Source: Nemertoderma westbladi
Taxonomy: Eukaryota > Animalia > Xenacoelomorpha
DNA length: 57,206 nucleotides
Direction: 5' to 3'
Assembly (NCBI GenBank): GCA_032718475.1
Contig: JAUCBJ010006049.1
Span: 1-57,206 of the forward strand
Below the pieces are notes generated by a model that saw only the letters and a list, made by a program, of their open reading frames with translations, was not told the origin of the DNA and did no database searches. Below, in pieces: positions 35,501 to 57,206 of this stretch; within the stretch, counting starts at the first letter, position 1; each line of letters starts with the position of its first letter. Position numbers and translations under genes: made by a program.

Positions 35501-35689
35501 AGCCACCTTCCAAGGTGAATCCCTAAACAGCCAGTTATACACCGGACCAAACATTTACAGCAACCTGGTTGGCGTATTGCTTAGATTTAGGGAGAACAAG
35601 GTGGCCTTTACATGTGATATTAAATCGATGTTTCATCAGGTACGCACACTAGCCAGAGACTCTGACAGCCTGCGGATACTATGGACCAA
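32576..35689 (+). pseudogene. BEL-1 gag-protease-partial RT with several stops and frameshifts
   Basis: Consecutive ORF fragments in different frames carry the gag, EQDALRKQKEA coiled-coil repeat, Zn knuckle, protease and N-terminal RT motifs. Confidence 0.85.
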
Positions 35690-37526
35690 AATAAACCAAC
35701 AGGTTGATACCATCAATGATGCTGACGACAGCAGGCAATCATCCCAGGCATGGAAATCGATCAATCTGCTTACTGGGCGGAAAAGCCAACCAACCACCAA
35801 GGTTAAGGCTGAATCACCAGCCGATCGCCTCAACGGTTGGAAAGCCCACTTTGAAAAGCTCCTCAATAATGACAGGGTATTGCCAGATAACTTTATAGAA
35901 GTAAAAGTGTCTGAGTCTGTACTCCCAGATATTCCCATTGGCGATATCTCCTTTGCAGAAGTGAAGGCTGCTGCAAAGAGCATTAAGACCAATCGTGCCA
36001 GTGGAGTAGATGTTGTTCCCCCTGAGGTCTTTAAAATACCTGAGTGTTTAAAGCTCATCTATCCCATCATAGTAGACATGTATCGAACAACAAGAGTCCC
36101 ACAAGAAATGAAAACAAATAAGTTGGTGCCAGTTCCCAAGAAGGGCAACCTAACACTCTATGGTTCTTTTCGGGGAATCTCATTGATCTCGACTGCTGCA
36201 AAGCTATTCTATTAAATTCTATTAAATCGCATCAGGGATCCCATTGAGAGACTGCTCCGTGGAAATCAGAATGGGTTCCGTAAAGGTCGTGGGACCATGG
36301 AGCCCATTTTGGCACTTAGAAGGATAATTGAAGAATTATCAAAAAAGAAAGACAGGCATCTGGCTGTTATCTTTGTTGACTTCTTCAAGGGCTTTGATTC
36401 AGTCTCTCGCTCACGTATGTTCAGCATACTTTCATTATATGGGATTCCTGATGAAATTATTGCAGCAATCAGATCAGTATACGATGGTTCGACAACATTT
36501 GTGTCTACTGTTGACGGTGACACAGAACCATTTGAAGTGTTATGGGGCGTCCTCCAAGGAGACACACTTGCACCATTCTTGTTCATTATTGTGGTTGACT
36601 ATGTTCTACGCATGTCCTTAGATCATCATAATGATGATGGGGTGATGATAACTCCACCTACTGGCTCCAGAAGTCGAGGAAATCCTGCCAAGTACCTAAC
36701 TGATCTAGACTTTGCTGATGACTTAGGAGTACTCTCAGAATCATTAGAGGGAGCCCAACGGCTCCTCAGCTCATTAGAACATGCTGCTTCTAGTGTTGGT
36801 CTTTTTATTAACTCCAGAAAGACCAAAATTCTGACAGTTAACTTTGAAAGTCCTCAGCAAGTCTCTGATCGGATGAGCATAAGCTCAAAGGATAGTATGC
36901 TTGAGCATGTGGACGACTTCTGTTACCTGGGATCATGGATCCGGAAGTCAGGTGAGGACCTTCGAATACGTAAGGGAAAGGCATGGGCAGCCTTGAATAG
37001 GCTTTCCAGGATTTGGAAGTCACCGAGAATTAATCGGAAACTTAAGGTCCGATTATTTAGAGCAGCAGTAGTTCCAGTACTCCTCTACGGGAGTCCATGC
37101 TGGGCTCTAACTGCTGAGGACACCAAATCTCTGGATGGCACATTCACAAGAATGCTACGCCGGGTTCATTGTGTCAAGTACAATGCACACATCTCCAACC
37201 AGACACTATATAACATTGGAGGTGTCTCATTGGTTCCCCCAAGCTTGACACTAGAACAAAATCGCCTCCGCTTTGCAGGACATTGCTTTCGCCGTGAGGA
37301 CCAGCCAGTGCATAATCTTGTACTTTGGCAGCCTCATGGAGTGAATAAGCATGGTGGACAGCCCATGACTTTCTTGAGACGCATCTTAAAGGACACTGGC
37401 CTTAAAGATGCGGATGATCTAGCAAATGTCATGGGTGATAGGGAGTTGTGGCGGTGCAATTTTGTTGACAAGCCGGCACAGCATTCCTAAAAATGCTGCT
37501 GCAATGCAGCATGCCGATACTAGTAG
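35690..37526 (+). mobile_element. 5'-truncated RTE-clade LINE inserted into BEL-1 pol; RT nearly intact (one in-frame TAA at 36213-36215)
   Basis: VPVPKKGNL..FRGISL, QNGFRKGR, FVDF.KGFDSV, GVLQGDTLAPFLF, DLDFADD, FCYLGS, RLRFAGHC; (TAG)n tail; TSD TATGGACCAA at 35680-35689 and 37527-37536. Confidence 0.92.
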
Positions 37527-38104
37527 TATGGACCAACAAGACACTTAATAATATGGATAAATATGATAAATATGACCAAACCGATCTTGAGCCACTGACA
37601 CCCAACCATCTGTTAGGACGACCGAAGACAAATATCCTTCCGGAAGGGATGTTCCCGGAACCCAGTGAAATAAGTCGTCACGCCAACTGGAAGAAATCGC
37701 AAGCATTGGCAGCACACTGGTGGAGGGTATGGTCGCACGAATATCTTTTAACACCCAGAACCCGCCGGAAATGGAATCACATTCACCGAAACATCGCGGT
37801 TGGAGATTTGGTGCTTGTCAAAGATGAACTGAAAGACCATGTTCATTGGCCTGTGGCGTGTGTTACCAAGATTTTCCCCAGAAAAGACGGTCTCACCCGC
37901 ACCGTGACGATCCAATCATCAAAGGGCCACTACGATCGCCCGATCCAAACTTTATGTTTATTGGAAGCAGTTTGTGATGACTTTGTAGAGTGCCCTGTCA
38001 AGGGCCACTATGACCGCCCGATCCAAACTTTATGCTTATTGGAAGCAGTCTGTGATGACGTTGTAGAGTACCCTGTAAAGAAACCCTACGATCGCCCAAT
38101 CTAG
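37527..38104 (+). pseudogene. BEL-1 integrase C-terminal region with the terminal motif tandemly triplicated
   Basis: PLTPNHLLGR...WWRVWSHEYL..RRKW...VGDLVLVKD...WP...G..RTV.I...YDRPIQTLCLLE, then about 78-bp repeats of the YDRPI block. Confidence 0.85.
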
Positions 38105-39681: not shown

Positions 39682-40484
39682 TCTATAATATTATAATAAA
39701 ATATTACTAAATATACCGGTAAATGCAAATGTAGGCCTACAATAGAGGAGGTCCTACCATTAGTTTAAACTATTGTGACCTATTACATTATAAACCCTGT
39801 TCTACATATTTACTACTGTACTATCTTGATTTCAACACGTAAAATTATACACTTATTCAAACTAATTAATGTTTACCTCTTTGAAATTCGAAAAACATAA
39901 AATGTAATGTTTCATCTTTATTATTAATTAGTTGATGTTATTTTTATCATATTTAACAATTAATTGTTGCTTTAAATGATACTCATCAATTTGTTGTTAT
40001 CAAGACTACAGATTCTAATCAAATTGCTTCATGACATAAAGCTAGAACTAGCCTGTTGCGGGGAGATTTTTGTAGACCTACGTAGGAGGACCCTTAGGCT
40101 GGTTTATTTTATCTTAAGAGTGCAAATGCAGCCAGCGGAAAGGAAAGGCCAGAGAATTTGGAAGGCATACTGTAGGCCTACAATAGGTTTCATTTTTACG
40201 TAGAAGAGACATGGTGTCGTGCTGAGAGAAAGCCTGTGGCGTTTCTTGATTCCTGATGGCACTCTTAAATATTAAATAAAAGCAAAATAAATTACCGATG
40301 AAAGTTGAAATTTACGAGCCTACTCAGTAATTAACTAACAAAAATGTAAGTTTTCAGAACGAAATACATGCTCTATTGATTTTGTGTTCTCTTCACGAAA
40401 TTGTTATAGGCCGATCCAAATTCAATGTAGGAATATGGTATCAGTATTCAGAATGTCTTTATGACCAGTAGTGAAATGGATTAT

Positions 40485-41160
40485 ATTGAAAAATATCGAG
40501 AATAAAAATAATGCGAGTAATAATATCGAGAGTAAAAATATCGAGAGTAAAAATTACGAGTGTTGAAAAATATCGAGAGTAAAAATATCGAGAGTAAAAA
40601 TATCGAGAGTAAAAATATCGAGAGTAAAAATATCGAGTGTTGAAAAATATCGAGAGTAAAAATATCGAGAGTAAAAATATCGAGAGTAAAAATATCGAGT
40701 GTTGAAAAATATCGAGAGTAAAAATATCGAGAGTAAAAATATCGAGAGTAAAAATATCGATAGTAAAAATATCGAGAGTAAAAATATCGAAAGTAAAAAT
40801 ATCGAGAGTAAAAATATCGATAGTAAAAATATCGAGAGTAAAAATATCGAGAGTAAAAATATCGAGAGTAAAAATATCGAGAGTAAAAATATCGAGTGTT
40901 GAAAAATATCGAGAGTAAAAATATCTAGTGTTGAAAAATATCGAGAGTAAAAATATCGATAGTAAAAATATCGAGTGTTGAAAAACATCGAGAGTAAAAT
41001 TATCGAGTGTTGAAAAATATCGAGTGTTGAAAAATATCGAGAGTAAAAATATCGAGAATAAAAATATCGAGTGTTGAAAAATATCGAGAGTAAAAATATC
41101 GATAGTAAAAATATCAAGTGTTGAAAAACATCGAGAGTAAAATTATCGAGTGTTGAAAAA
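40485..41160 (+). repeat. 15/18-bp minisatellite array (AAAAATATCGAGAGT / TGAAAAATATCGAGTGT)
   Basis: Dozens of direct repeats visible in the sequence. Confidence 0.95.
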
Positions 41161-41489
41161 TAAAATATTTATCAAAATTGGTAGCTTACACGTGTTGTAT
41201 AACATTTATAAAAAGAAGTAGATATTACTAGCTAGTATAAAATACTAAAAATCTGATCTAGAACTAAAAAATGTGTTCTAGAACGAAAATATTTATCAAC
41301 ATTGATAGCTACTGTAGCTCTTCTATAATATAATATATTAAAAAAAAAGCAAAAACTAGCTAGTGTAATAAATCTGGTAAATGGGTACCTAAATTTGCAC
41401 TTGCACTGTTGTAACCCATGCACTGCAATATTGTCCCATAATTCTAAATGAAATGCTCACGCAAAATGCAATATTTTTACTGTCAATAC

Positions 41490-42296
41490 TTTTCAACACT
41501 CGATATATTTACTCTCGATATTTTCAACTCTCGATATTTTTCAACACTCGATATTTTTCAACACTCGATATTTTTACTCTCGATATTTTCAACATTCGAT
41601 ATTTTTATTCGCAATATTTTTCAACAAACGATATTTTTCAACACACGATATTTTTCAACACTCTATATTTGTCAACACTCGATATTTTTACTCTCGATAT
41701 TTTCATTCTCGATATTTTTCAACACTCGATATTTTTACTCTCGATATTTTTCAAAACTCGATATTTTTCAACACTCGATATTTTTACTCTCGATATTTTT
41801 CAAAACTCGATATTTTTCAACACTCGATATTTTTCAACACTCGATATTTTTACTCTCGATATTTTCAACATTCGATATTTTTAATCGCAATATTTTTCAA
41901 CAAACGATATTTTTCAACACACGATATTTTTCAACACTCTATATTTGTCAACACTCGATATTTTTACTCTCGATATTTTCATTCTCGATATTTTTCAACA
42001 CTCGATATTTTTACTCTCGATATTTTTCAAAACTCGATATTTTTCAACACTCGATATTTTTACTTTCGATATTTTCAACATTCGATATTTTTAATCGCAA
42101 TATTTTTCAACAAACGATATTTTTCAACACACGATATTTTTCAACACTCTATATTTGTCAACACTCGATATTTTTACTCTCGATATTTTTACTCTCGATA
42201 TTTTTACTCTCGTTATTTTCGATATTTTTCTTCTCGCGTTATTTTTACTCTCGATATTTTTTAATCACGTTAATTTTCAACACTCGTTATTTTTCT
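41490..42296 (-). repeat. Same minisatellite in inverted orientation with higher-order blocks
   Basis: ACTCTCGATATTTTT / CAACACTCGATATTTTT units; the variant block CAACATTCG..TCGCAATA..CAACAAACG..CAACACACG..CTCTATATTTG recurs 3 times. Confidence 0.95.
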
Positions 42297-43590
42297 ATAC
42301 ATCTCATACCGATGCTCTACGGGGCGCGTTGTTAAAATGAGACAGGCAGTTGTTCTTCTAACTAGGTAAGAAAAATAGAACTAACTTTTTTGCCTTTTTC
42401 TCATGTAAATAATGTTAGTACTACTTAGTAAGAAATCGAAGCGAGACGATATTATAGTTTTATATTTAGTTTTTACGTAAGAAATCACAATAATTATTAT
42501 AGGAAATTAGGGTAGTAAGAAATCAGTGGACATTTTAAAGTCATATTAGGAATTAAGGTACATTTATATTTACGTGGGCGCAGCGGTAACATTCATAGTT
42601 GTGATACCATTTTTGGTGCACTGGCAGATTGATAATAAAACGTATAGCTGTGTTAAATCCTGTTTATAACTTTACTGTGACGTAACATGGGTTTGTGTGT
42701 AAGTCAACCAGTGCTACCTATTGCCTTAACAGTATAACCTAACCAGTTACCCTTCATTAGATCACGTTAAACCAGTTCTTATTAATGAATCACTCCCCAT
42801 TTGACATTAATTTCGCGTAGATTGTTCGTTAATTGTTATTATTTAAACAAAACCCATACATTTGATTTGTATTGTATATTATTGATCACACTTTTACGCG
42901 AAATTAAGATTACTTTTGTATACATGTTGGAACCAGTTGGATCTTGTTTTACTTCTTTAATTCTTTTTTAAAATTTTGTGATTTGTAAGTTTCTTGTGTT
43001 TTACCTTTAAAATTAACGGTTTTATTGCCTTTTAACTGTGAATTTGACTGATTTATTGATTATTATTATTATGTAATCTGTCGACTAACGTCAATACGTT
43101 ATTATTCTACTGCACCAGAAGTATACCAGAACCAGCTTACCGGTAGCATCCATAGCAGTGGCGGTCCGTGGTCAAAATTTTTGGTTGGGCCTCACCGAAA
43201 ACTTTATGAATATAGTGGACTCAGTAATACTGTAATAAATAAATACACATAAGATTGGTGTTAAGGAGGGAGGGGGGGGGGGGGGGGGGGGGGGGGGTTA
43301 TTGTCGAAGAAAGAAAAATGGTTTTATCTAATTAGAACATTAAGTTATAGTTCATATCCGTACCTGTGGTATTTTCATATTGCAAAAATAAGAATAAATA
43401 TGAAGTATATGAAGTATGTATGATATATGAAGTAACCTATGTTATTGAGATATTGTTTATTGTTTTGGTTAGAAAACACCGCCACTGTAACCTGCTCCTT
43501 TTGCCACAGACGCATACCGGTATTATAATTATCATAATCATGAATCATTATTATCTAAATTGAAATTCAGAACACTTGTTCAGAATCAGA

Positions 43591-43873
43591 GGCCCATGTG
43601 AAGAATACCAGACTTTATCAGCTGTTATATTTCACTTTGCAGTTTATCCCCATGTGAAGAATACCAGGTTTTCACCAAAAACACAGGTTACAGAAGGGCT
43701 TAATCTAACCAAAACAATAAACGTTAGTATATGAACAGGTTATAAGACAGAAATGAGCGCTATAAAACACTTAATAAAGATAAATTCAAAAATACACATT
43801 CTTCCTAGGCCTATATATAATTCCAATAAAATGTCGACCGAAAAATAAAAACCTGGTATTCTTCATATGGGCG
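43591..43873. mobile_element. Small MITE with GG terminus and 8-bp TSD (Merlin-like, tentative)
   Basis: TIR GCCCAT(G/A)TGAAGAATACCAG, duplicated internally at about 43648; TSD GAATCAGA vs GGATCAGA (7/8). Confidence 0.6.
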
Positions 43874-44007
43874 GGATCAGAACGAAGTTAGGCTAATTAA
43901 TTTTATTATCTTCGTCTCTGCAAATTCTAAATAATTTAATTCTGTTTTTTTTGCATTTCTGAAAACTCTAAATAATTGTATTATTATTATTTCATTAAAA
44001 AAAATAA

Positions 44008-45178
44008 TGTTCGCGCTTTCAGACCTTTAGCAGTTTAACCTGCCAAATTTGGATGTCTTCTAGATAATAAATCGACTTTAGCCTATGACGAGTATTGGAT
44101 ACACTACATTAGCCGAAGCCAGTCTATGCGCGACCATTCACCCGCTGGATATACCCGGGAGACTGGATTCGGAAGCCTAACCTTATTGCGGTGTAGGTCT
44201 ACTGTATTATTCGACTGATCTTAATATATATAATCTCTGACAATATTATTCACTTTCGGGAAATATTAACAGTTCCTTTAGGACGTGGCGCTTTAAATAT
44301 ATAAACAGAGTTATGACTTAAACTAGACACAACGGGATGGCTATAGATTCACGTATAAAGCGCATTCTTTAGGAGATGCTTTGTTATCAGTCACAATCAT
44401 GCACACTACCGCACAATGCTGCACACTAATCTGCCGACCTTCACTAATTTTAGTCACATATAAGGAGAACAACAGACAATACGTGTAGGGCCTATAAAAT
44501 AGCATTAGATTCACTTCAAACCACTTAATGTAAGTCGCAATCGTTATATGTATCCGGTCTCTCTAACCTTTAGTATATCAAGAAGATTGGGGTGTCTGAT
44601 TGTTTATCAGTATTCCAAATATAATATTTCATCAACAAATATAATGAATAACCGACAGCAAAAGCATTAATGTTAAGGTATGAATGATTATGAGTGACTG
44701 AGTGAGATATGATCAGTTATGATTAGTTGAGTGAGATAACGGATATACGCTCTATAATTAAGCCTACTAATGTTGATGCTAAAGACTGAAACACGGAGGT
44801 TCCACGCCGGTGTTGTAGGCTGTGGAAAAATCACATACTGACTCACTTCCCTAGTTTCTATCTACCATCTCTAACACAGAGGCAAAAAACGCTCTGATTG
44901 GTCGACCGAACAAAGAGAGAACAAAGAACAAAGAGATGTTCTACGTGGCAATATCAGCTGTTAGCCGTCGTCATGGTAGCGACACTGTTTCAAGAGGATC
45001 CGGCGTATTGCGTCATAGAATTGCTAATCATGTCCGCTAAAGTACACATACAGAAGAAATGGCTTTTATGTCCTCTAAAACAACAATACAGTAAGGACAC
45101 GGCCTTTTATGCCTGTTAAACCAACTACAGAGTACTTTACGGGGAAAATAACCGGCTAATTACGCAAAAGCCTTTACA
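44008..45178 (-). repeat. 3' LTR of BEL copy 2a
   Basis: On the minus strand, PPT GGGAGCGG is followed by TGTAAAG and the LTR ends ...GCGCGAACA; 44008-44700 is homologous to 47233-48450. Confidence 0.8.
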
Positions 45179-45256
45179 CCGCTCCCAGAAAATGGGATTT
45201 AAGTCTATAAAATATAACAAATCACAGTTTCTAAAATATAAAAATACTCTAAACAG

Positions 45257-45850
45257 TTAGTCTTTCTTACGTGGACGGCGTTTACGCAGTTTTTTTGAGG
45301 CTAGCAAGAGTCCTTTTCTCTTTGGGGCGAGCCACTTTACTAGGAGGGCTGTAACTCCTGGGTGAAGGGTGCAATACAATTGCATCAGAAGGTTTAGGAT
45401 TACGATCGGTGTATCCGCCGGTTGAGGTACCTGGTTGATCGATATCAACTTCAGTGGAGCGAGGTCTAACGGCCTTTAGGGCGCGTCTTAGGACAGCAGC
45501 TCCTACGGGTCCTTGACGGGTCGTCTGGACAACGGCGGTAGGCGGACCGTGAGTGGTGAGAAACTTCCTTGGTTTAATGGTTCTTTCCAGCTCGCGTTCT
45601 CGGGCTCGATATTCGTAGGGCCGTCGAGATACTTCCTGTAACTCAGGGTGCGAGTTGATAAATAAATCGCCATACTCAGGGTCTTGACGGATGTAATTGA
45701 TCAAATGGTATGAAGTAATATCGTTAGGATTGACGTTCCTAAGGTATTTTCGAACAAATTTGGTGGAAATACACTCACCAACACGCTTCATTAGTTCGTA
45801 ACTCGGTGTGCGTGTTTTTTGTTCCACAGACGCGAATAAATAAGGATTAT
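45257..45850 (-). pseudogene. C-terminal part of the BEL accessory ORF (copy 2a), 1-bp frameshift near the end
   Basis: Aligns residue by residue with the C-terminal ~190 aa of 49028-49921. Confidence 0.85.
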
Positions 45851-47232
45851 GGATCCTCTCTCCTCTAAGGCAGGCAGGTTGGGGTCTAAATTCCCTATAA
45901 ACTTATAAAATAAAGAGTTTGTTACGATCGATTTCGAGCTCCCAGGCCCATTCTCAAGTAAATAATTAACAATATGAAATCACATTACTGCATTACAGAC
46001 TAAATAATCAAATAGAGTAGGCCTACATGGAATAGCTGAATACGTAAGGAAATTACAGAAATACACTAAAATAAATAACGAAATAAACTGCAAAGCCCTG
46101 GTAAAACTCAGAAACCGAACAATAGACTTACAATAAAATAAATACTGAAATAATACAGTTAGATGTTGTACAATAATAAACCACAGATACCGTTACCGGT
46201 TTGTAATGCTGGTTCTGTAGTCTGACAGCCTGGGCTACGTGGTGTACGGTGTAGCGTGTAGGCCATGGTACGGTAGGCTGTCAGGCAGAGGCAGTACAGC
46301 AGTACAATTCGTACTAACAGTTGACAGATCAAAATATTCAGGTGAACCTAAAGATATACAGTACAGTAGTTAAAATAACGGGGCGGGAAAAGTTAATATA
46401 GAGCACCATATAGCATAGTAGAACTAAATAAAAGAACACGGCATATAAAATAAGTAGAACAAATAGGGCATCGTTAAAAGTAAATAAAGGCACGGCGTAT
46501 TGGAATAAATTAATTTAAACTTGTGCAAAATCTTAAACTACAGTAGTTACGATAGGTTATTTTAAACATAAAATAAACTAAATTACCGGCACGCCACATT
46601 TTAATAGCTGACGATGAAAAATTGAAAATTTTTTAGTAACTTGACCATCTCCAAAGTAAACACAAGAGTACAGTAGATCAGATAAAGTGCGCACAAAGGG
46701 ATGGTTGTACATAAAAATTAGAAACCTCAAACAAAATATGGTAGGTCAGTTATAGGGTGGATAAAATACAAAATAAGGGGCACCATGGTAAAAAATAAAT
46801 AAAAAATAATAATAACTGAAGATAAAAAATAAAAAATAAAATGCATCGGATATAACCCTTTATTATTGAACAGGGTTCTATTGAACAGTTGTAAATACAG
46901 AATTGTACAAACATTCTAACAATATAATATAGTTACACAGATAGATCATGGTAAAGAATAATAACTAAAAGGACAAAATATTGCAAAGTTGAAAAAAATA
47001 AAAAATTGAAAAGTGAAACAACGTCTCAAAACTACAGTAGATCCGATAGGGCATGGCGAAAAATAAATCACTAAATAAACAAGTGGCCCGCTATACTGAA
47101 ATGCTCTCAATAAAAATTGAAACATGTGGATATAAACCTACGCGACGCCAGGTATGAGTTTGTTCAGGGGTGGGCGAAATTTACGAATGTAGACCGCCTC
47201 CCCGTGTATTCTATCAACGTCTGAGTGGTATT

Positions 47233-48949
47233 TGTTCGCGCTTTTGAAGACCTTTAGCAGTTTAACCTGCCAAAATTTATATGTCTTTTAGTTAATTAAA
47301 ACACCTTTAGCATACGACAATATTTTATACTAATAAACAAAACATTACCCGAAGCCAGACCATGCGCGATCATTCACCCGATGGATCTACACCCGGGAGG
47401 CTGAATTCGGCTGCTTAAATTTTATTATTGCAGTGTAAGGTTGCAGTGTAAACCTACTGTATTATTCGATTGATCGTTATTAATTAATTTCTGACAGATA
47501 TTATTGGCTTTCGGGAAATATTAACAGTTCCTTTAGGACGTGGCGCTCTATCTATTTAAACAGAACTAGGACTTATACTAAACGCAACGATACTGCTTAT
47601 GATTAAAGTATAAGGCGCATTCTTTAGGAAATGCTTTGTTACCAATCACAATCATGCACACTATTCTGCCGACCGTCAGTAAATTTGATCACACATAAAG
47701 AGAGCAGCAATTGACTCATGTAGGGTCTGCTAAATAACATTAGATTCAATACACACCACATTAATATAAATCGCAATTGTGGGGCGAGCCACGAAGTTGG
47801 CGGAGCCTTAGCGAATTGACACTGTTAGGGGGTGGGTCAATTTATGCAAATAGTTGTCGTCGTCGTCGTCGTTGTCGTCGTCGTCGTCGTTGTCGTCGTC
47901 GTCGTTACGATTTTGACATGTTAATAACTTTGTCGGATTTAAAGCTGCCAAGTTGAAAATTTGTAGGTATCAATATGAGCAAAAGTTGAGATTTTTGAGA
48001 GACTTTCAGACACCATCAGTGCAATGGTCTCCCGCTAGAGGGCCACATGTCTAAACATTAAATGCCCTCCCATTTCTTTGCTTTTAATCCGTTTAAGCTG
48101 AAACTTGGCAGATATGTATTAGACCATTAGCTGTGACTTTCAAAGGAGGCGAATCCATCTGCAGTTCTCCAGTCTGCCGCTAGAGGGCCAACGTGACAAC
48201 GACGACAACTATTTGCATAAATTGACCCACCCCCTAACAGTGTCAATTCGCTAAGGCTTCGCCAACTTCGTGCTGCGCGAAGTCCCCACTTCGTGTTATA
48301 TATAGCCCGTCTCTCTAACCTGTAGTGTATCAAGAAAATTGGGAATTTTGGGTGATTTATCCGTATTCTCCAAAGAGCAATATTTCCATCAACAAATAGA
48401 TACAATTAATAACTGACGGTAAATAACAGTACAAACAATATGATTAATAGTGAGTTAATTAGATCAGATAAGTAATTAGGTCGGATTGATCGGATAACAG
48501 TTTATACTTTCGATAATTTAAGCAGTTTTACTAGAGTTCTTCCCAAAAAGCCGGTGTTATGGCGAAAAAGGGAACACAACAACAGAATCATATAAAATCA
48601 TATGACTACCTGACCATACGAGGATACCAACTACCCTTATTCCCCGAAGCTCCCGTCCAACACAGAGGATGAGCAGTGAGATAGGAAAATTCAGTTCAGT
48701 AGCTCTGGGATAGGTCAAAATCAACGCCCACTCAAATTCTATTGGCCGATACGGACAGCAGGGCTAAGGCAACCTCCCTAAGCTGGTTGGCCGATCGAAC
48801 AGAACCCAGATACTCTCGTACAGCCCATCAGCCAATAAGCTGGTAGCTTGCACTATTTTACCTATAGATCCCTTTTAGAGTATTCTAGCGACCGGGGGGG
48901 AACTGGCCAGCAAGGCAAACGAATCAGTTATCCCACAAAAGCTTTTACA
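47233..48949 (-). repeat. 3' LTR of BEL-2b (contains a 511-bp insertion)
   Basis: PPT GGGAGCGG then TGTAAAAG; ends GCGCGAACA; homologous to 44008-45178. Confidence 0.8.
47779..48289. mobile_element. Palindromic insertion with ~100-bp inverted arms and (GTC)n microsatellite, TT-flanked (Helentron/HINE-like, tentative)
   Basis: GTGGGG..CACGAAGTTGGCG..TTAGCGAATTGACACTGTTAGGGGGTGGGTCAATTTATGCAAATAGTTGTCGTC is inverted at both ends; absent from the paralogous LTR at about 44540. Confidence 0.75.
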
Positions 48950-49027
48950 CCGCTCCCAGAAAATGGGATTTAAGTCTATAAAATATACAAAATCACAGTT
49001 TCTAAAATATAAAAATACTCTAAACAG

Positions 49028-50476
49028 TTAGTCTTTCTTGCGCGGACGGCGTTTACGCAGTTTTTTAAGGCTAGCAAGAGTCCTTTTCTCTTTGGGGCGA
49101 GCCACTTTACAAGGATGGCTATAACTCCTGGGTGAAGGGTGCAATATGATTGCATCAGAAGGTATGGGATTACGATCGGTATATCCGCCGGTCGAAGTAC
49201 CGGGTTGATTGACATCAACGTCCGGGGAGAGGGGTCTAACGGCTTTGAGAGCTCGTTTCAAGACAGCCGCTCTTACGGGTCCTGTACGAGTGGTCTGTAC
49301 GAGGGCCGTGGGTGGACCATAGGTAGTTAGAAACTTCCTTGGTTTAATGGTTCTTTCCAACTCGCGTTCGCGGGCTCGGTACTCGTAAGGCCGTCGATAT
49401 ACTTCCTGTAACTCAGGGTGTGAGTTGACAAATAAGTCTCCATAGGCAGGGTCTTGACGGATAAAGTTTATTAAGTTGTAAGAATGGATGTCACTCGGAT
49501 TAATGCTCCTGAGGAATTTGCGTACATATTTAGTTGAAATACATTCTCCAACGCGCTTCAATAGTTCATAACTTGATAGGCGTGATTTCTGCTCGACGGA
49601 GGCAAACAAATAAGGATGGAACGCATAAACTCCTTCGTAAGCGCGTCCAGGGTAATAGCGATGGCGTGAATCACAATGTAAATCAGCGTTCGCTTCCCAA
49701 GCTCTGATATAACGTAGTACAATCATTTCATCTACGCTCTCTAAATCATGATTAAAGGGACAATCAAAGCTGGAGTGTCCTTTTAATTGACAATGATGGC
49801 ATTGAGTCATAAATTGGGGGCAGACAGCAAAAATGTGCAAGTTATTGAGTCTGTAATACGCGCAATAAATTTCCATCGTCGGTTGTTCGTGGAAATAGGA
49901 ACAGCGGACGTTTGTGTCCATGGGCGTAACATGGTCTCTCGATGCGCATAACCGACAACGTTGCCGAGAAACATAGTTGGCATGGCGATAATCGTACGCA
50001 GTGAGACACTGTGGACCTTGATACCATTCTAGGAGGTAATCGTTGTCGTTGTTCCGGGCGCGATAGGCTGAATCTCCTCAGATTCTAGGCATATTGGTTC
50101 GTCTTCCCAGTCTGTTACGAATATAATTTTCGTGATCTATTCTCGGTTTATCGTTACGACTCCACTGGGTATGATATTTAAATAGAACCATTTCCCTTTC
50201 GGTGTATACATCGTCCGTATCATGTAAATCGATAGGATGGCCGGTAGTTAGGAAGTCCATATACGTACCATTACGATGCGTATAGCGAGCGGTTAATTTT
50301 CGATAGTCCAATTCACGCGTAAGTCGCTCTTGGGACATCGGCGGTTCGATATAACGACCATTGTCCTCCGTAATAGTCGGATCGGCTTCACCGCGTATCA
50401 AGCTATCCACAAACGCTTGTAAAGGTAGAGTATATCGCTCTCTAATACCAAGGTCATCTTCTATCAATTCCGTCAT
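49028..50476 (-). CDS. BEL accessory ORF, ~482 codons with one internal TGA (50078-50080): three Cys/His zinc-knuckle-like motifs and a basic C-terminal tail
   Basis: Listed ORFs 50078-50476 and 49028-49921 are in the same frame and the linker is stop-free (GDSAYRARNN...CRLCASRDHVTP-MDTNVRC); motifs CRLC..H..C, CAYY..H..C, CHHC..GH..C; ends LKKLRKRRPRKKD. Confidence 0.75.
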
Positions 50477-51287
50477 ATCTGCTATCTGAGTTTATTAATA
50501 TCAGTATGAGTTAATATTTAGGCAAGCGGGCGTCGCTGCCTACTAGTCTTTGCCCCCGGACAGTGGGTTTCTCAGCGCCGATGTACCGTTGTCGCGGTGT
50601 TTACGCCAACATGTAGCAACAGCACGACAACGATAACCGGCACAAGTCCCACCACTGTCCGTCCCAAAAGCTTGAATCCACTTGAGGTTATCTCGGTAGA
50701 GTTAGGGCTACTTTACAATTGCGATTAGCTACTGTAAACACACTTTAGTAGTAACATTCACCTATAAACGCACAAATTCCATACAATCATTACTTACTGC
50801 ACACATGCAGGCCATTTGTTCGTTAGTCAGTGTCTTCCAGAATGTCACGTTATTACTATGTATCCTTGGATACTAATAGTGCGCTATGTATCCTCTTAGG
50901 CTACGCAATGGGGCAAGCCTTTTATTGTTCCTTTAACTTGCTTCTAATTCTAGCGTGGGTGTTGCCATGGTGACATTATGGAAAACTAGCGGTAGAATTA
51001 GGGTAATTCTCATGCATACAGATCTGGGATGTTATTTAATAGTAATTCTTTAGTTGTCAATATCCTCTTTATGCATGATTTTATAAATTTTATCGGCTAT
51101 TGACTATATGTTGGAGATTCTCGCACTCTAGTACACTCAATATGAATCTCCGCTCCCATGATCTATTAATTACTGGAAATTTGGGAATGTTATAAATTGC
51201 ACAAAATGACAATTTATGAAATTCATTTGAATATGAATTTAAATTTATTCCCGTGAATTTTATTATTTGATGTTAAATTGACACAAA

Positions 51288-51580
51288 TTTTATTCCAGAG
51301 CATATCTGGGGACTTAGGATCCTTAATTCTATAAAATAGTCCTTCTAAGAATATCGGTAAATACTGCGATATCTTAATTGACTAGAATTTTTTAAAGGAT
51401 CGGGATTTTACAGATTTTAATAAATATTAAATTAATATTTAGGATGAGCACCGATTTATTCCAGAACTTGTCTGGGGACGTTAACCACTGATTCTAGAAT
51501 TTGTCTTTCAAGTATATCGGTGGGTGCCACGATATCTTAATCGACTAGAATTACAGATGGTCAAAAAGTTTAACAGATTT
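51288..51580. repeat. Diverged ~166-bp tandem duplication in the BEL-2b inter-ORF spacer
   Basis: TTTATTCCAGA..TCTGGGGAC..ATATCGGT..GATATCTTAAT.GACTAGAATT occurs at about 51288 and 51455. Confidence 0.75.
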
Positions 51581-52124
51581 ATTTGCGATTTACGCTACTG
51601 TTAGAGGGACATCACGCTACTATATGTATTATTTGTTATAAGGTAGAAGAGCAATATCGCACGAAGCAATGTCAGTGTGAAGAGGCAAGTCGTTTCCAAG
51701 GTCTACCCAGAGCTTGGTTTACCTGAGACACGAGGATCTGAACTTTGCATTCCTAATACTCTGCCTACCAATAATACTTAAATATAGTAGTGGCTTTATT
51801 GTACTTTAATAAGTACTGACATGTCATCTTACTATAGTCTCGCATTTATAATATAATACGGACAGTAAGGAAAGAGAAAAATAATTATTTCTTGCCGTCG
51901 CACTAAATATATTGTAAGTAATTAAATACGTAATAAACACTAATATATTGCACTAATTTACTAAATATTCTAAAATAACATTCTACTAAATAAAATTAAA
52001 GAAAACGATTATAATAAAATTACATAATAATACATACATAAATATAAAATAAAAACAAATATAAAATGATATAGTCACACGCCCACTCCATATGTTATTA
52101 CGTTATGGAGTCCCTAGATATTTG

Positions 52125-55100
52125 TCAGATTAGGGAAGTGGTCGTAGGAAGAGTATCTTGCCTTCCATAGTTTCCGGACAGTTTTCGGTCTCTTTCCAGT
52201 AAACATAAACGACTAGCTGGGCGATTGAGTCGTTGTGTTACTTTCTCCGCTCCCTTGGCCTGTCTAATTTCTGCCGTGGTAAGATGAGGAGGCCATTCTT
52301 CTTCTTTACTTAAGGAGTCGGATCCACCTAACCAGCCTGGAGTATCTATCAGTTCTTGAGGAGTTGCTCCTCTGGAAGCGATGTCGGCTGGATTAATCGT
52401 CCCAAGGCAATGTCTCCATTGATCTACATTGGAGTTAATATCGTCATTATCTGAGGAGTATGGTGTTCCCTCAGTTGGATCGTCCACATCACTGCTCTCC
52501 ACTTCCCCCTTTACTTGGTATACCTGTTGTTGAGGTAATCTCTCTTTGAGAGTTCTACGGGAAGGGCCAGTGAAGTACCAACCTACTCTAGTTCTTACCG
52601 CATAGGTTTGTAGTGGCTGCGGTTGAGCAGGCCGTTTCTCTAATGTTTCGAGCGCCTCGTGCGCGTTTTGGCCGATGAGTATTTGCACTCCCGGATAATC
52701 TGTCTGGAATCGAGGTATCTTAAGATGTTGGATGCTCTCATCTTCGTCCCAATTATAAAGGTCTGCTTGAGTAGTAGCAAAGTTCTTTATAGCCACCATT
52801 TTTACTGACCTTATACCTTGTGTTCCTAACTTATCCTGGGGGGTGGACAACACACCTACATAGTAATCTGCCGTTAGGGTAGATTTCCAAACCTGCATAA
52901 TTCCTGACATATTCAATTTAGTCCGGAACTTGGGTTGTCCAGCAAAGATATCTTCGGCTAGTTCTTGATCGATGAATGTTCCTGTGCTGCCGGAGTCAAG
53001 GAGGGCGTTCACTATGTAGCTTTTGTTAAGACCGTGAACTCTTACTTGAACTACAGGAAATTCTCTGATTCCTACGTTGGAAGCTGGAGCTTTCCAAGAT
53101 GGTTGTTTGGCGAAAGTAGTTGGGGGAAACTCATCGTTGATGTCCTTTTCGTAAGTAAGTGCTCGATACACGGTGGTATTGATTAGATAACAGGATTCGT
53201 TGGCGTCGGAGAATTCGTCAGTATAGAATCCTTCCATCTCAGACTCCTGATCAGTGTCGTTTACATCACTGAATTGGACATGTAGTTCGGACTCACTTAC
53301 CTGACTCTGCTTGTCTCGTTCGAACTCACTATGTAACAAGATGTGATGTTTCGCACCACACTTTTCACACTTTATGTCGGAGTAACAGGTTCGCCGTTGG
53401 TGTCCTGGTCTGAGGCAATTATAGCATAACCGCTTGTCCCACACAACTGTACGTCTGTCTACAAGGGATTTCTTTAGAAATTCCGCACACGCACTCAAAC
53501 GGTGGGTCCCGTCGCACAGTGCACAGTTAGGTTTTATGTTACTTACTTTACCTTGGGTAGTTTGATGCACTCTCGTTCTTTCTTCGGGCTTTCTTCCGCG
53601 CATTCTGCTAGGAGACTGAGGAGGGGTCTTAGCAACCTGTTCTCTCCTATTGTTGGTTCGAGCCTTGTATTTACTTACGTCCTTGGAGGTTTTGTCAACA
53701 TAGTAAGATCGTTGGGTGTCTTTCCCGCTGTCTTCTTCTTGAGAAGCTTGGCTTTCGCCGTCGTCAGTGTAACACACCGGTGTTACTCTTCTCCTAGAAG
53801 TGGGTTTCTCACTTACCTTATTTTCTGATGTTTTCTCTCTGGACTGCTTGATGAGTTGTAGTTTTACTTCACCATCTAAGAAAGACATGAGATCAGCCAT
53901 GGTAGGACTTCGTCGTTGTTGTTCATTCATGTACAACACTTTCTTGTCCCAGCGTGTACATACTCCACCCTTTGGTAAAGTAGAGACTACGGCTCCAATA
54001 ACCATGGAACTCTGATATTCATGCGACTTACCTAACCAGTCCAGTTGTCTACAGATCTCTTGAATTTCATCGGAAAACTCTATAATCCCGCTACTAAGGA
54101 AGTGTCGGGGGGCTACTAATTTTGCATACAAATACTTAGCTATGTTATCTTTGTTACCATACCTGATGTTTAGTGTATCCCAAACTTGTCTTAATCCATC
54201 TGGATGTCCAATAAACTTTAACGCCATTAACTTGGGAGGTCCTTCCAAGCACTTGATGAGGAATCTAAGTTTCTCTCCGTTAGATAGTACAGAGTTCTGT
54301 ATGCTATCTTTGTAATATTCGTTGAAAGGTAACCATTTCATCTCATCTCCATTGAATTTGACGATCTCTCCCACTTTGACCGCTTGGCGGGCTTCTGTTC
54401 TAGCCATCTGACGCGTAAAGCTTTCTTGAGCCATCGTGTTATTTAATATCGAATTATCGGTATATAAATTTCTCGGATCATTATCAGGTCTATAGGGAAT
54501 ATCATTAATAACAGGTCTATAATCACCCTTAATAGGGTTTGCTATAGGAGTTTCTACTTCACTAGCAGTATAGATGCGTGTAGGCTCCACACCTTGCGCA
54601 TGTAATACTTCAGACCTAACAGGTTGACACAATGTTACAGGGGGTATTGGTATGCCCTTTTGTATATTGACTAATTTGTCGCGTTCTAGCGCGATACTTT
54701 GCTGCACTTCTTGCAACTCTGCTCTACCTTCCCTCACTGTTCCCTTAAGTTGGTGGACAGTCTCCTGCATCTGTCCTAGCAGGAGATTCATCCCCCGCCG
54801 TCCCTCTTCCACCCACTCAACCGCCGAAGCGGGAGTCGCCAACATAGTAGCGGGCTGAAGCGGGACGACGGGAGACAAATTTTTGATTTCTCTCTCTGCT
54901 ATCTGGACAGGGATATTCTCTTGGACTGTTCCACCGGGTGCAGGCAGTGTAGTACTATGTAAAGGGAATTTAGAGTTAAGCTCTGGAAGTACAGGGGTCT
55001 CTAACACAGAAGTGACTTTGGGAACGACAGGCTTAATTACTTCAGGTTCATCAACTATTGTAGGGAGTCTTTTGACCTTAATACTTTGGGCTGTAGGTTC

Positions 55101-56741
55101 TACACTACTCAAGTCTGTGCTAGCTAGCTGTCTTCTAACAGCTGGGGGCAAATCAGGCAATTTGCGACGGTAAGATGTTTTTCTACGCCTACTTAGATGA
55201 GATCTATTTCCTCCGCCTTCAGGATCGGTAGTCTCGCCTTCCTCCGAGGATGTGTATCCCTGGCGCTTGGGAGTAGATTTTCTCATCATCTGCATTTGAT
55301 TAGCAGTAAACTGTTTATTTATACTGTCTTGCGTCTCTTGCAGATTCTCCAACTCCAATTGGATAGTCTCCTCAGAAGCTCTACGTTCTGCTTCTGCCAC
55401 TGCTGCCTTTCTTTCTGCTTCTGCTTCTGCCGCCTTTCTTTCGGCTTCTGCTTCTGCTTCTGCTACTGCTGCTTTTCCTTCTGCTTCTGCTTTTGCCGAC
55501 TTTCTTTCGGCTTCTGCTTCTGCCGCCTTTCTTTCGGCTTCTGCTTCTGCCGCCGCTGCTGCTGCCACCTTTCTTTTCTCTATCCATTCTTTCTTTACTT
55601 GTTCTTCTCGGACTCTAGTGAGGCGGAGTTTTTCATCACATTCAGCTTGGTTTGCAGCTAACATTTCCGCATCGATTGAGTCCAACACAAGCTTAGTTCC
55701 TTCACTATTAGGGGAAAGTCCAGACAGCCGTCTCCTCAACTCTTCGTCTCCTAGGAATCGCTGATAGTCGGACAAATAAATGTCGATAGCGTCTCTAGTT
55801 CGCGGCTTCTCGGCGGTCTCTTCGCTTTCCGCTTGAGAAAGGGTGACATCAGTTTGTTCTTCATGGGGTGATCTCTCAGCCAGCTGGGATTTCCACTGAG
55901 CCGTTTCCTGCACTTTGAGATCTACCCGATGTAACCAAGTTTTGACAGCAACCTGTAGCGACGTGTCCTGTCTTCTTTTGGAAGTTTCCTCAAAGGCTGA
56001 GAGGATTAGTCGTATGCGTAGGGTTCTTTCGCGTATTTGGTATAGCAGCTCTTCCTGCTCTTGAGGTCCTTGAAGTTGTCGAAACAGTTGTTCTTCCAAT
56101 CGCTCCAAGGAGCCGAAGAATCCCTGCACATACCCTGCTGCCGACCTCTTCCAAACAGCTGGATCCATTGTATCTTTAGCCACTCCCATCCGGTGTATAT
56201 CTTCCCAAGTAGCCTCGGACAGATCCAACGGGAGTCCGAGTCCGGGAAAGTTCCATTGTGACTCGACAATAGACATCAATTCTTCCCTGGCGTATCCCGC
56301 ATAATTATCTTGGGTCGCTCGCTTATTCCTCGCCCAATCGGCTTGATGTTCCTCTACCGCAATGAATATAGTAGTTAGCACTGCAGCAGGAAGGGTAAGA
56401 AGGGGGTCCGAGTAGACTGTAGCAGCCATCTGCACTCCGCGTTCGGGGGTCAGCTCTACAGTATCCAAACTACTGGAGCTATCGGGTCGCTGGGAAGTAG
56501 GTTCTTGACCAAGATGTTGCTGCGATAGGACAACTGCCTCTTGGTTCCGTTTGACCTGTGCCCGAGTGCCTATAATGGACCTATGGTGGATCAGCCTAGG
56601 GTCTGATACTACTGGAGGGATGACCTTTCTTGCAGTAGGAGGTGAGCTGAACTCTTTTCTTAATCGCTCCACACTCCTATCTGTGTCACAGATGGTTGTA
56701 TCGATCAGACTGTCTGACAGGTTTTGCTGAGTGTCAGACAT
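52125..56741 (-). CDS. BEL/Pao Gag-protease polyprotein, 1538 aa, with RT, most of RNase H and the integrase core deleted in frame
   Basis: KFNGDEMKWLPF..EKLRFL..CL.GP (BEL gag); Zn knuckles CALC..H..C, CYNCL..GH..C, CEKC..HHILLH; protease LLDSGSTGTF and ILIG; then only WRH..NPADIASRG..W..EEWP and RPASRLCLLE remnants. Confidence 0.92.
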   Translation of the reverse strand: MSDTQQNLSDSLIDTTICDTDRSVERLRKEFSSPPTARKVIPPVVSDPRLIHHRSIIGTRAQVKRNQEAVVLSQQHLGQEPTSQRPDSSSSLDTVELTPERGVQMAATVYSDPLLTLPAAVLTTIFIAVEEHQADWARNKRATQDNYAGYAREELMSIVESQWNFPGLGLPLDLSEATWEDIHRMGVAKDTMDPAVWKRSAAGYVQGFFGSLERLEEQLFRQLQGPQEQEELLYQIRERTLRIRLILSAFEETSKRRQDTSLQVAVKTWLHRVDLKVQETAQWKSQLAERSPHEEQTDVTLSQAESEETAEKPRTRDAIDIYLSDYQRFLGDEELRRRLSGLSPNSEGTKLVLDSIDAEMLAANQAECDEKLRLTRVREEQVKKEWIEKRKVAAAAAAEAEAERKAAEAEAERKSAKAEAEGKAAVAEAEAEAERKAAEAEAERKAAVAEAERRASEETIQLELENLQETQDSINKQFTANQMQMMRKSTPKRQGYTSSEEGETTDPEGGGNRSHLSRRRKTSYRRKLPDLPPAVRRQLASTDLSSVEPTAQSIKVKRLPTIVDEPEVIKPVVPKVTSVLETPVLPELNSKFPLHSTTLPAPGGTVQENIPVQIAEREIKNLSPVVPLQPATMLATPASAVEWVEEGRRGMNLLLGQMQETVHQLKGTVREGRAELQEVQQSIALERDKLVNIQKGIPIPPVTLCQPVRSEVLHAQGVEPTRIYTASEVETPIANPIKGDYRPVINDIPYRPDNDPRNLYTDNSILNNTMAQESFTRQMARTEARQAVKVGEIVKFNGDEMKWLPFNEYYKDSIQNSVLSNGEKLRFLIKCLEGPPKLMALKFIGHPDGLRQVWDTLNIRYGNKDNIAKYLYAKLVAPRHFLSSGIIEFSDEIQEICRQLDWLGKSHEYQSSMVIGAVVSTLPKGGVCTRWDKKVLYMNEQQRRSPTMADLMSFLDGEVKLQLIKQSREKTSENKVSEKPTSRRRVTPVCYTDDGESQASQEEDSGKDTQRSYYVDKTSKDVSKYKARTNNRREQVAKTPPQSPSRMRGRKPEERTRVHQTTQGKVSNIKPNCALCDGTHRLSACAEFLKKSLVDRRTVVWDKRLCYNCLRPGHQRRTCYSDIKCEKCGAKHHILLHSEFERDKQSQVSESELHVQFSDVNDTDQESEMEGFYTDEFSDANESCYLINTTVYRALTYEKDINDEFPPTTFAKQPSWKAPASNVGIREFPVVQVRVHGLNKSYIVNALLDSGSTGTFIDQELAEDIFAGQPKFRTKLNMSGIMQVWKSTLTADYYVGVLSTPQDKLGTQGIRSVKMVAIKNFATTQADLYNWDEDESIQHLKIPRFQTDYPGVQILIGQNAHEALETLEKRPAQPQPLQTYAVRTRVGWYFTGPSRRTLKERLPQQQVYQVKGEVESSDVDDPTEGTPYSSDNDDINSNVDQWRHCLGTINPADIASRGATPQELIDTPGWLGGSDSLSKEEEWPPHLTTAEIRQAKGAEKVTQRLNRPASRLCLLERDRKLSGNYGRQDTLPTTTSLI

Positions 56742-56814
56742 GTTTAGCTATACAGTTGAATGTCTACTGCTATAGTTACAGTTAAAGCAAGTCTAGTAAT
56801 TCAGTATGACCGCT

Positions 56815-57100
56815 GGCCTAGTACCGGTAATTTATTGCAGTATAATAGAATACCGGTATGCACTTATAATATATATAAGTATTGTAAACTAGGTTTGTCA
56901 CAGAGTACCGGTATATAAATTTAGCACAGATATATATAAATATATAATAGGCCTATCGTGAATACCGGTATACAGCTTACACTGATAGGATATATAAGTA
57001 TAATTATGGACTAGAATCAAGTACAGAGTACCGGTATGATTTCAGCTCAAATTTATAGAAATAAATATAATAAGCCTACGGTAAATACCGGTATGTCAAT
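56815..57100. repeat. Degenerate ~60/123-bp repeats with TACCGGTA cores in the BEL-2b leader
   Basis: TACCGGTA at about 56822, 56851, 56906, 56963, 57029 and 57087; ACAGAGTACCGGTAT recurs about 124 bp apart. Confidence 0.6.
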
Positions 57101-57206
57101 TATTTTAGAATAATTGAATTGCTGAATATTTTAGGGTTACTTGGTTACTTTAACTTACTTTATTACCGTTATTTAAGCAGTAGTCCAACTGATTTTGAGA
57201 CCTAGT

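What the first reader, a model, noticed from the sequence alone, without database searches (positions are those of the whole stretch)
49028..50476. BEL/Pao element carries an extra triple zinc-knuckle ORF with a basic tail in the env position
Seen: between the gag-pro ORF and the PPT/LTR is a same-strand ORF of about 482 codons (one internal TGA). It has three Cys/His knuckle-like motifs and a K/R-rich tail resembling an NLS, with no obvious signal peptide or transmembrane helix. A diverged copy at 45257-45850 keeps the protein with mostly conservative changes (RVGECISTK, RQDP.YGDLF.NSHPELQEV, RRPYEYRARERELERTIKPRKFLTT) despite many third-position differences. Established: BEL elements usually have one gag-pol ORF, and some (roo, Cer7, Tas) add an env glycoprotein here. 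Inference: a non-env nucleic-acid-binding accessory protein under purifying selection, such as a second nucleocapsid, an RNA export factor or an anti-silencing factor.
Basis: partly seen in the sequence, partly recalled or inferred. Interest (0 to 1): 0.85.

Follow-up and report, generated by a model that had tools for sequence, protein, structure and literature searches.

The report
Orphan zinc-knuckle gene in BEL retrotransposon
A highly repeated BEL/Pao jumping gene in an invertebrate genome, whose copy here has lost its copying enzymes, carries just before its end repeat an extra selected gene with no detectable relatives, which likely encodes a nuclear, zinc-knuckle RNA-binding helper rather than an envelope protein.

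Summary
A minus-strand frame (50476-49028) ends 79 bases before the 3' LTR of a BEL/Pao element. Against the second copy it shows dN/dS 0.11 (CI 0.06-0.18, residues 288-469 only). It has no membrane segment and no homologue among 1.84 billion representative proteins, so it is not env and not a known BEL gene.

Three corrections. (1) This copy lacks RT, most of RNase H and integrase: gag-pro, an RNase H tail, a 1.6-kb spacer, the extra ORF, the LTR. (2) Only knuckle 3 is canonical. (3) The TGA is not private decay: it does not vary in 4 of 4 runs. It lies in a rearranged linker, and sister subfamilies appear to read those codons in another frame. The 482-residue read-through product is therefore probably wrong around residues 115-140, and the window's subfamily must splice, recode, or be dead here.

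Best model (0.4): a Rev/CERV-like nuclear protein that binds the element's unspliced RNA. Function is inferred from anatomy and analogy only; no RNA data, no confident fold match. Non-env 3' ORFs are known in Gypsy-type elements. I found none described for BEL/Pao. Verdict: new variant of a known kind, interest 0.5.

The parts
52125..56747 (-). BEL/Pao gag-pro ORF (1540 codons): DUF1759, triple Cys-His nucleocapsid, LLDSG protease, fused directly to a short RNase H tail; RT, most of RNase H and integrase absent
   Evidence: DUF1759 E 8e-12; profile of 10 BEL polyproteins matches positions 99-644, then jumps to 1200-1254 of 1787
52272..52433 (-). RNase H C-terminal remnant (NPAD..SRG..W..WP motif)
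   Evidence: iE 3e-13; hit by 10 of 10 BEL relatives
50477..52124 (-). 1.6-kb AT-rich non-coding spacer with no pol remnant; covered as deeply as gag and the ORF in the laid runs
50081..50476 (-). Extra ORF, N-terminal 132 codons from the first ATG; no Pfam match; three listed mid-frequency variants near its start are synonymous
50055..50135 (-). Rearranged linker holding the family-wide TGA (50078-50080); sister subfamilies differ in length here and seem to use the neighbouring frame
49760..49957 (-). Cys/His region, residues 174-239: one atypical, one degenerate and one canonical CCHC knuckle
49331..49615 (-). Predicted six-helix domain, residues 288-382 (pLDDT 74, pTM 0.57); strongest constraint (dN/dS 0.075 over residues 288-380)
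49028..49330 (-). Pro/Ser/Thr-rich linker and K/R-rich tail (candidate nuclear localisation signal), then stop
48950..49027 (-). Short 3' spacer and purine run (candidate PPT); 89 of 92 bases after the stop are identical between the two copies
47233..48949 (-). 3' LTR of copy A (TGT...ACA; about 1.2 kb without its insert)
47778..48293 (.). 516-base MITE-like insert in LTR A, absent from other copies
   Evidence: (joint skipping 516 bases in 4 of 4 runs)
45257..45847 (-). Copy B: 5'-truncated C-terminal part of the same extra ORF from a diverged subfamily, with a one-base frameshift near its end
44008..45178 (-). 3' LTR of copy B (1171 bases, TGT...ACA); about 75% like LTR A in its 3' part, poorly alignable in its first ~500 bases

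Best explanation
This is a selected, non-envelope accessory gene at the 3' end of a highly repeated BEL/Pao retrotransposon family, and its product likely works like HIV Rev or nematode CERV: likely made from a spliced sub-genomic RNA, predicted to enter the nucleus by its basic tail, and likely binding the element's own unspliced RNA through zinc knuckles so that the RNA would be exported and packaged by Gag.

Shown: position, element anatomy, purifying selection on residues 288-469, no membrane segment, no detectable homologue, a family-wide TGA.

Inferred: zinc and RNA binding (motif only), nuclear import (motif only), splicing (needed because the ORF lies 1.6 kb behind a terminated gag-pro), the export role (analogy). 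The window's copy lacks RT and integrase and would borrow them from an autonomous partner; keeping Gag and this gene fits a product needed for handling the element's own RNA.

The TGA likely arose when a variable linker was rearranged. Sister subfamilies probably read through this region without a stop. The window's subfamily either removes or bypasses the stop or makes no full product (about even odds).
For: dN 0.083, dS 0.76, dN/dS 0.11 (bootstrap 0.06-0.18); differences by codon position 19/14/63; the other five frames hold 6-15 stops in each copy. Diverged contigs align without gaps across the knuckles (X4 record 19: 407 bases, 77 differences) and the helical domain (X3 record 16: 354 bases, 55 differences, depth 7329; X5 record 25: 527 bases, 88 differences). 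Just upstream of knuckle 1, 9 of 12 polymorphic sites are synonymous third positions (binomial p 0.004). Canonical CCHC knuckle plus basic tail, no hydrophobic segment. Synonymous divergence drops from dS 0.9-1.1 to 0.16 in the last 39 compared codons, and 89 of 92 bases after the stop are identical, which fits an overlapping RNA signal (or recent recombination). [quoted passage not shown]
Against: No function was measured. No sequence or fold link to CERV or Rev was found; CERV's Cys loop is proposed as C4-type, not CCHC. The knuckles score below Pfam cut-offs, and the dN/dS does not cover them. The scan of 49900-52300 found only one acceptor-like site, far from the ORF start, and none of the 20 frame-keeping GT..AG pairs around the TGA has a strong consensus by eye. 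The sequence after the TGA folds no better than shuffles (z +0.68), so no read-through signal is evident. If the abundant window-type subfamily amplified with a dead ORF, the protein is dispensable in cis. CCHC plus basic tail fits a packaging chaperone or an anti-silencing factor equally well.
Confidence: 0.4

Rival explanations
1. Second nucleocapsid or nucleic-acid chaperone: the protein is packaged with Gag, helps RNA selection or reverse transcription, and its basic tail helps carry cDNA into the nucleus.
For: Three Cys/His motifs in a row echo the triple box of BEL Gag (PMC554778 passage); basic tail.
Against: No significant similarity to this element's Gag NC or to 10 BEL relatives (best BLASTP E 0.42, none of the listed NC matches longer than a knuckle or two). 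Spacing differs from the BEL box. The Gag NC here is intact, so a second one is redundant.
Confidence: 0.18
2. Anti-silencing factor: a nuclear protein that shields the element's DNA or RNA from piRNA or chromatin silencing and so permits the very high copy number.
For: Very high repetition (103,997 contig pieces laid on 13.7 kb in run X1); orphan sequence; fast-diverging first half of the LTR; candidate NLS.
Against: The C-terminal half is under strong purifying, not diversifying, selection; no motif points to a silencing pathway. Anti-silencing proteins of transposons are recalled, not checked here.
Confidence: 0.17
3. Captured host gene: a cellular ZCCHC/AIR-type zinc-knuckle gene picked up by transduction and then kept by the element.
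For: Weak Pfam hints (zf-CCHC_3 E 0.0035, AIR2-like_ZnK4 E 0.61). Capture of ORF3s is documented in rotifer LTR elements (PMC5408684 passages).
Against: No protein at E<=0.001 among 1.84 billion representatives or in the word-indexed search; a conserved cellular parent would be expected to show. Both window copies abut a PPT and LTR. This explains origin, not function.
Confidence: 0.1
4. Pol-derived: the ORF is a duplicated, much diverged RNase H tail and linker region that gained new motifs.
For: Residues 150-231 align weakly to BEL profile positions 1232-1314 (W..GP..L motif; -0.1 bits), reached by 3 of 500 full shuffles and 0 of 500 window shuffles.
Against: The score is negligible and rests on one short motif. 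It was not reported in the six-frame search. No HHCC or DDE integrase signature. The true RNase H tail is present separately at 52272-52433.
Confidence: 0.07
5. Highly diverged env or cell-fusion protein.
For: Position matches env; some belpaovirids carry env-like genes (PMC8742986; PMC9094657 passages).
Against: Best hydrophobic window 0.63, one NxS/T site, a helical domain and a basic tail. Described BEL Envs have class II beta-rich folds with a transmembrane anchor; FAST-like sORF2 proteins are 63-107 residues with a TM helix (PMC11952523 passages).
Confidence: 0.03
6. About the window's own subfamily (compatible with the functions above): its ORF is dead. A master copy with a broken linker amplified passively, and the function survives only in sister subfamilies.
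For: TGA unvaried in 4 of 4 runs; 9 of 32 listed pieces are one base longer net across the linker, and 5 of those 9 continue with unlike sequence beyond 50107-50115. No read-through structure. A second random indel would land back in frame one time in three.
Against: Both halves stay open and in one frame in this copy. Mid-frequency variants in the N-terminal part are synonymous (3 of 3 among those listed there). Short frame-keeping GT..AG pairs exist around the stop.
Confidence: 0.45

Closest known systems
CERV of C. elegans Cer1 (Gypsy/Ty3), PMC10309623
   Same: [quoted passage not shown]
   Different: Gypsy, not BEL; autonomous element; CERV's N-terminal half is spliced from gag exons; C4-type loop, not CCHC knuckles; no sequence match found; splicing and export role shown there, untested here.
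Env-like genes of Belpaoviridae (Tas, Cer7, Cer13, Atlas), PMC8742986, PMC554778, PMC9094657
   Same: Same superfamily and same position before the 3' LTR.
   Different: Those are glycoprotein-like (class II fusion fold, TM anchor in Atlas). This ORF has no membrane segment and has zinc-knuckle motifs and a basic tail.
Non-env ORF3s of bdelloid rotifer LTR elements (PMC5408684) and plant additional ORFs (PMC7264820)
   Same: Family-specific extra genes between pol and LTR, kept across copies; non-autonomous derivatives can retain them (TelKA2n keeps its env-like ORF).
   Different: Rotifer clades named there (Juno, Vesta, TelKA, Mag) and plant elements, not BEL; rotifer ORF3s are esterases, DEDDy nucleases, TM or coiled-coil proteins, unlike this orphan.
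BEL/Pao Gag nucleocapsid triple Cys-His box
   Same: Three Cys/His motifs in tandem, one of them CX2CX4HX4C.
   Different: Separate ORF, different spacing, no significant sequence similarity; the element's own Gag box is intact.

Membership tests
BEL/Pao (Belpaoviridae) | Gag triple Cys-His box (CX2CX3-4HX4C, CX2CX2-4HX4-5C, CX2-4CX3HX4H; PMC554778) | tested here: met
   motifs at residues 1075, 1108, 1127 of gag-pro
BEL/Pao (Belpaoviridae) | DUF1759 Gag domain and LLDxG...LIG protease; nearest relatives are BEL polyproteins | tested here: met
   10 of 10 hits carry PF05380 and PF18701, 22-31% identity
BEL/Pao (Belpaoviridae) | 3' LTR of 0.2-1.2 kb preceded by a short polypurine tract | tested here: met
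   TGT...ACA, 1201 bases without the insert (A) and 1171 (B), purine run upstream in both
BEL/Pao (Belpaoviridae) | pol with RT, RNase H and integrase | tested here: not met
   profile positions 645-1199 and 1255-1787 unmatched in 43000-57206. Filed as a non-autonomous derivative of a BEL element, not a complete member
BEL/Pao (Belpaoviridae) | 5' LTR, primer-binding site, target-site duplication | not testable with these tools
   The 5' end runs off the window; no genome held
BEL env-like glycoprotein | Signal peptide or transmembrane anchor | tested here: not met
   best 19-residue hydropathy mean 0.63 (hydropathy scan only; no dedicated signal-peptide predictor)
BEL env-like glycoprotein | Viral fusion-protein fold | tested here: inconclusive
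   Model of the 349-residue part has pLDDT 37.5; the one usable domain model is all-helical
CERV/Rev-like RNA export factor | Non-env ORF between pol and 3' LTR with Cys-rich region and basic NLS-like motif | tested here: met
   (motif level only)
CERV/Rev-like RNA export factor | Sequence or structural homology to CERV or Rev | tested here: inconclusive
   No hit; fold searches weak; no direct pairwise comparison was run
CERV/Rev-like RNA export factor | Expression from a spliced mRNA; nuclear; required for export of unspliced RNA | not testable with these tools
   Only contigs were laid, none on record as RNA; needs bench work
Retroviral-type zinc knuckle (PF00098) | CX2CX4HX4C reaching the Pfam cut-off | tested here: inconclusive
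   Pattern met once (residues 226-239); 14.4 bits vs cut-off 20.8

The most novel reading that the evidence does not exclude
The first non-envelope accessory gene of Belpaoviridae: a new zinc-knuckle protein family that gives a BEL/Pao lineage a complex-retrovirus-style Rev function, evolved independently of Rev and CERV, kept with gag-pro by a pol-less family that amplified massively, and, in its main subfamily, expressed across a fixed in-frame UGA by a newly gained small intron or by recoding.
Probability: 0.25. Interest if true: 0.8.

Novelty: new variant of a known kind. Interest (0 to 1): 0.5.

Why it matters
BEL/Pao elements are among the least studied LTR retrotransposons; the ICTV profile lists only gag, pol and an optional env-like gene and calls their replication poorly understood. 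A selected, orphan, non-env gene shows that this family also gains accessory genes. If it exports or protects unspliced RNA, it is a further independent solution to a problem that HIV solved with Rev and Cer1 with CERV. Thousands of diverged natural copies in one host make subfamily-level selection, splicing and frame changes directly testable. It also asks why a pol-less element keeps gag-pro and this gene.

Tried and rejected
Homology: 0 hits at E<=0.001 among 4662 word-sharing candidates of 265-844 residues; 0 among 1.84 billion representatives; 0 in PDB sequences at E<=10; Pfam only sub-threshold (EAD2 E 0.016 on copy B and Phage_integr_3 E 0.091 treated as noise). Related loci: none confirmed in metagenome contigs (159 pattern matches) or viral contigs (2). 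No ESM Atlas result was obtained, so language-model-level look-alikes remain untested. No whole genome held. Earlier findings: none.

Structure: the 349-residue part folded at pLDDT 37.5 and its viral fold search was meaningless. The six-helix domain gave no Foldseek match at E<=0.001 in PDB or BFVD and best Z 4.2, none at 5 or more, among 48,161 chains. By title, 13 of the 50 listed rows are CARD, death or pyrin domains (Z 2.9-3.9; my count): a lead only, below the tool's own bar for helical bundles. A homodimer prediction of that domain gave no answer (score 0.01).

Expression: no RNA holder listed; X4 is only guessed to be RNA, belongs to a second coded organism and showed no joint in the stretch. 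Read-through or frameshift RNA structure near the TGA: none above shuffles in 4 of 4 stretches (z -0.16 to +0.68). Nothing suggests an altered nuclear code: the clathrin frame is open for 1691 codons under the standard code, with 16 TGG codons and a TAG stop; selenocysteine was not tested.

Rejected: 'the TGA is a private mutation'; 'copies A and B are a tandem pair sharing one LTR' (LTRs only ~75% alike in their 3' part, different flanks after ACA, and 46242-47155 is low-depth sequence); the plus-strand BEL at ~34-38 kb as the same family (only 32% over the NC box).

Host: an invertebrate with no close reference (clathrin at most 81-82% identical, best to hemichordates, long branch in a quick tree without supports on 102 of the 120 listed relatives, chosen by length); not resolved further.

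Full report
OBSERVATION. The minus strand holds 482 codons from ATG 50476 to TAA 49028 with one TGA at codon 133. The 349-codon part behind the TGA is far beyond chance (0 of 1000 shuffles); the 132-codon front part alone is not (86 of 1000). The protein has a Cys/His region (residues 174-239), a helical region, a Pro/Ser/Thr-rich stretch and a tail with 54% K/R. Its best 19-residue hydropathy is 0.63 and it has one NxS/T site, so it is not a membrane glycoprotein. Only the third knuckle is canonical, and it stays under Pfam's cut-off. The second lacks a ligand in this copy, at a site where almost all other laid contigs differ from the window, so that lesion looks private.

THE ELEMENT. Upstream lies a 1540-codon ORF with DUF1759 (E 8e-12), the BEL triple Cys-His box (definition from passages of PMC554778) and an LLDSG protease. 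All 10 relatives found are BEL polyproteins at 22-31% identity. A profile of these 10 matches positions 99-644, then only 1200-1254 of 1787: RT, most of RNase H and all of integrase are missing from this copy. A 1.6-kb non-coding spacer follows, then the extra ORF, then 79 bases, then an LTR from 48949 (TGT, behind a purine run) to 47233 (ACA) with a 516-base insert. The 5' LTR is outside the window. Copy B (ORF fragment 45847-45257, LTR 45178-44008) is a separate, truncated insertion of a diverged subfamily. Laying four runs showed the whole unit, spacer included, to be highly repeated: 103,997 pieces in X1, single contigs at depth up to 7329 in X3, against bin depths of 0-105 at 46242-47155. 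Summed depth is no copy number, and no piece spans the unit, so it is not shown that the pol deletion is family-wide. Loose ends at 52229-52240 show that some relatives continue differently next to the RNase H remnant.

SELECTION. Over 182 codons (residues 288-469), copies A and B differ at 19, 14 and 63 first, second and third positions; dN 0.083, dS 0.76, ratio 0.11 (bootstrap 0.06-0.18). The other five frames hold 6-15 stops in each copy. This test does not reach the knuckles. For them the evidence is a gap-free contig with 77 differences over 407 bases (49652-50058) and 9 of 12 synonymous polymorphic sites just upstream. In the last 39 compared codons dS falls to 0.16, and 89 of 92 bases behind the stop are identical: an overlapping RNA signal or a recent recombination.

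THE TGA. In one search (211 bases, 4 runs, differences listed from 10%, list not cut) no variant appears at the three letters of the stop, although it is covered in all four runs and three nearby sites where the window differs from 65-100% of the rest were listed. So the letters are family-wide. Of 19 listed sites I set those 3 aside. The boundary was chosen after seeing the indels and linked sites are not independent, so these p values are soft. Nine of 32 listed pieces are one base longer net across the linker, where the indel table lists changes at 50055-50063; 5 of the 9 run on with unlike sequence beyond 50107-50115; six pieces cross that zone without a gap, among them one at depth 2918 spanning 49970-50170. 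The longer type is 22% of depth there in X5, about 10% in X3 and 0.1% in X1, and diverged copies are laid less readily. Inference: there are two structural types. In one, the codons before about 50058 are read in the neighbouring frame, where these letters are no stop. In the window's type a rearranged linker puts them in frame. The first in-frame ATG after the stop is codon 186, behind constrained codons, so window-type copies need a small intron (20 frame-keeping GT..AG pairs exist, none strong by eye) or recoding (no RNA structure above shuffles), or else their ORF is dead. I put that at about even odds.

WHAT THE PROTEIN IS. No homologue was found. It is not a copy of the Gag nucleocapsid. 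A weak alignment of residues 150-231 to the BEL RNase H tail (-0.1 bits; 3 of 500 and 0 of 500 shuffles) is a lead only. Residues 288-382 are predicted as six helices (pLDDT 74 from a two-row alignment).

MECHANISM. An ORF 1.6 kb behind a terminated gag-pro needs its own, probably spliced, message; rotifer ORF3s are said to be expressed that way (PMC5408684 passages). An element that splices must still export unspliced RNA. Cer1 does this with CERV, a 517-residue nuclear protein whose C-terminal half is encoded in the env position, with a candidate NLS and a Cys-rich loop (PMC10309623, passages and section 15). The present protein has the same position, size class and kinds of motif, and CCHC knuckles bind single-stranded nucleic acid in nucleocapsids (established knowledge). 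I therefore commit to a Rev/CERV-like role (0.4), ahead of a second nucleocapsid or chaperone (0.18), anti-silencing (0.17), a captured host gene (0.1), a pol derivative (0.07) and env (0.03). Every functional step is inferred; it works like CERV at best, and membership is not claimed.

NOVELTY. The ICTV profile (whole text) gives Belpaoviridae gag, pol and an optional env-like gene. Passages of PMC3118150, PMC554778, PMC2774666, PMC12440569, PMC9094657 and PMC11952523 name no non-env 3' gene for BEL. Ten full-text searches (listings and abstract starts only, unless named above) found none. Non-env extra ORFs are known in other LTR elements (PMC7264820, part 1 of 3). Limits: Repbase and GyDB could not be searched; I opened no supplement, and the sequence supplement of PMC3118150 could bear on this; I recall an older report of a small extra ORF in C. 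elegans Cer7 but could not find it.

Noticed in passing
window 4785-9860 (-): Intronless clathrin heavy chain ORF (1691 codons) in a 54-58% GC stretch amid ~35% GC DNA; at most 81-82% identical to database relatives, best to hemichordates.
   Followed up: partly
window ~33975-38104 (+): A second, distant BEL element (NC box 34467-34664, start of RT, DUF5641 at 37469-38101) interrupted by a different reverse-transcriptase ORF, likely of a non-LTR element; ~100-base repeats upstream at 31527-32249.
   Followed up: partly
window 47778-48293: 516-base MITE-like insert in LTR A with a 78-base, 97% inverted repeat and a GTC microsatellite; other copies lack it.
   Followed up: partly
window 55386-55596: Glu/Ala/Lys/Arg-rich tandem repeat in gag (periods 27-93), variable in length among copies.
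   Followed up: no
window 52125-52127: The stop ending gag-pro looks private to this copy: nearly all laid contigs differ at one of its letters.
   Followed up: no
window 44008-45178 vs 47233-48949: The LTRs of copies A and B are barely alignable over their first ~500 bases but ~75% alike in the 3' part, while the DNA just before the LTR is 97% identical: a mosaic suggesting promoter turnover or recombination.
   Followed up: partly
window 40397-42282: Two arrays of 15/17-base repeats in inverted orientation.
   Followed up: no
window 28557-29336 (+): Fragment of another reverse transcriptase (RVT_1 E 3.5e-19).
   Followed up: no
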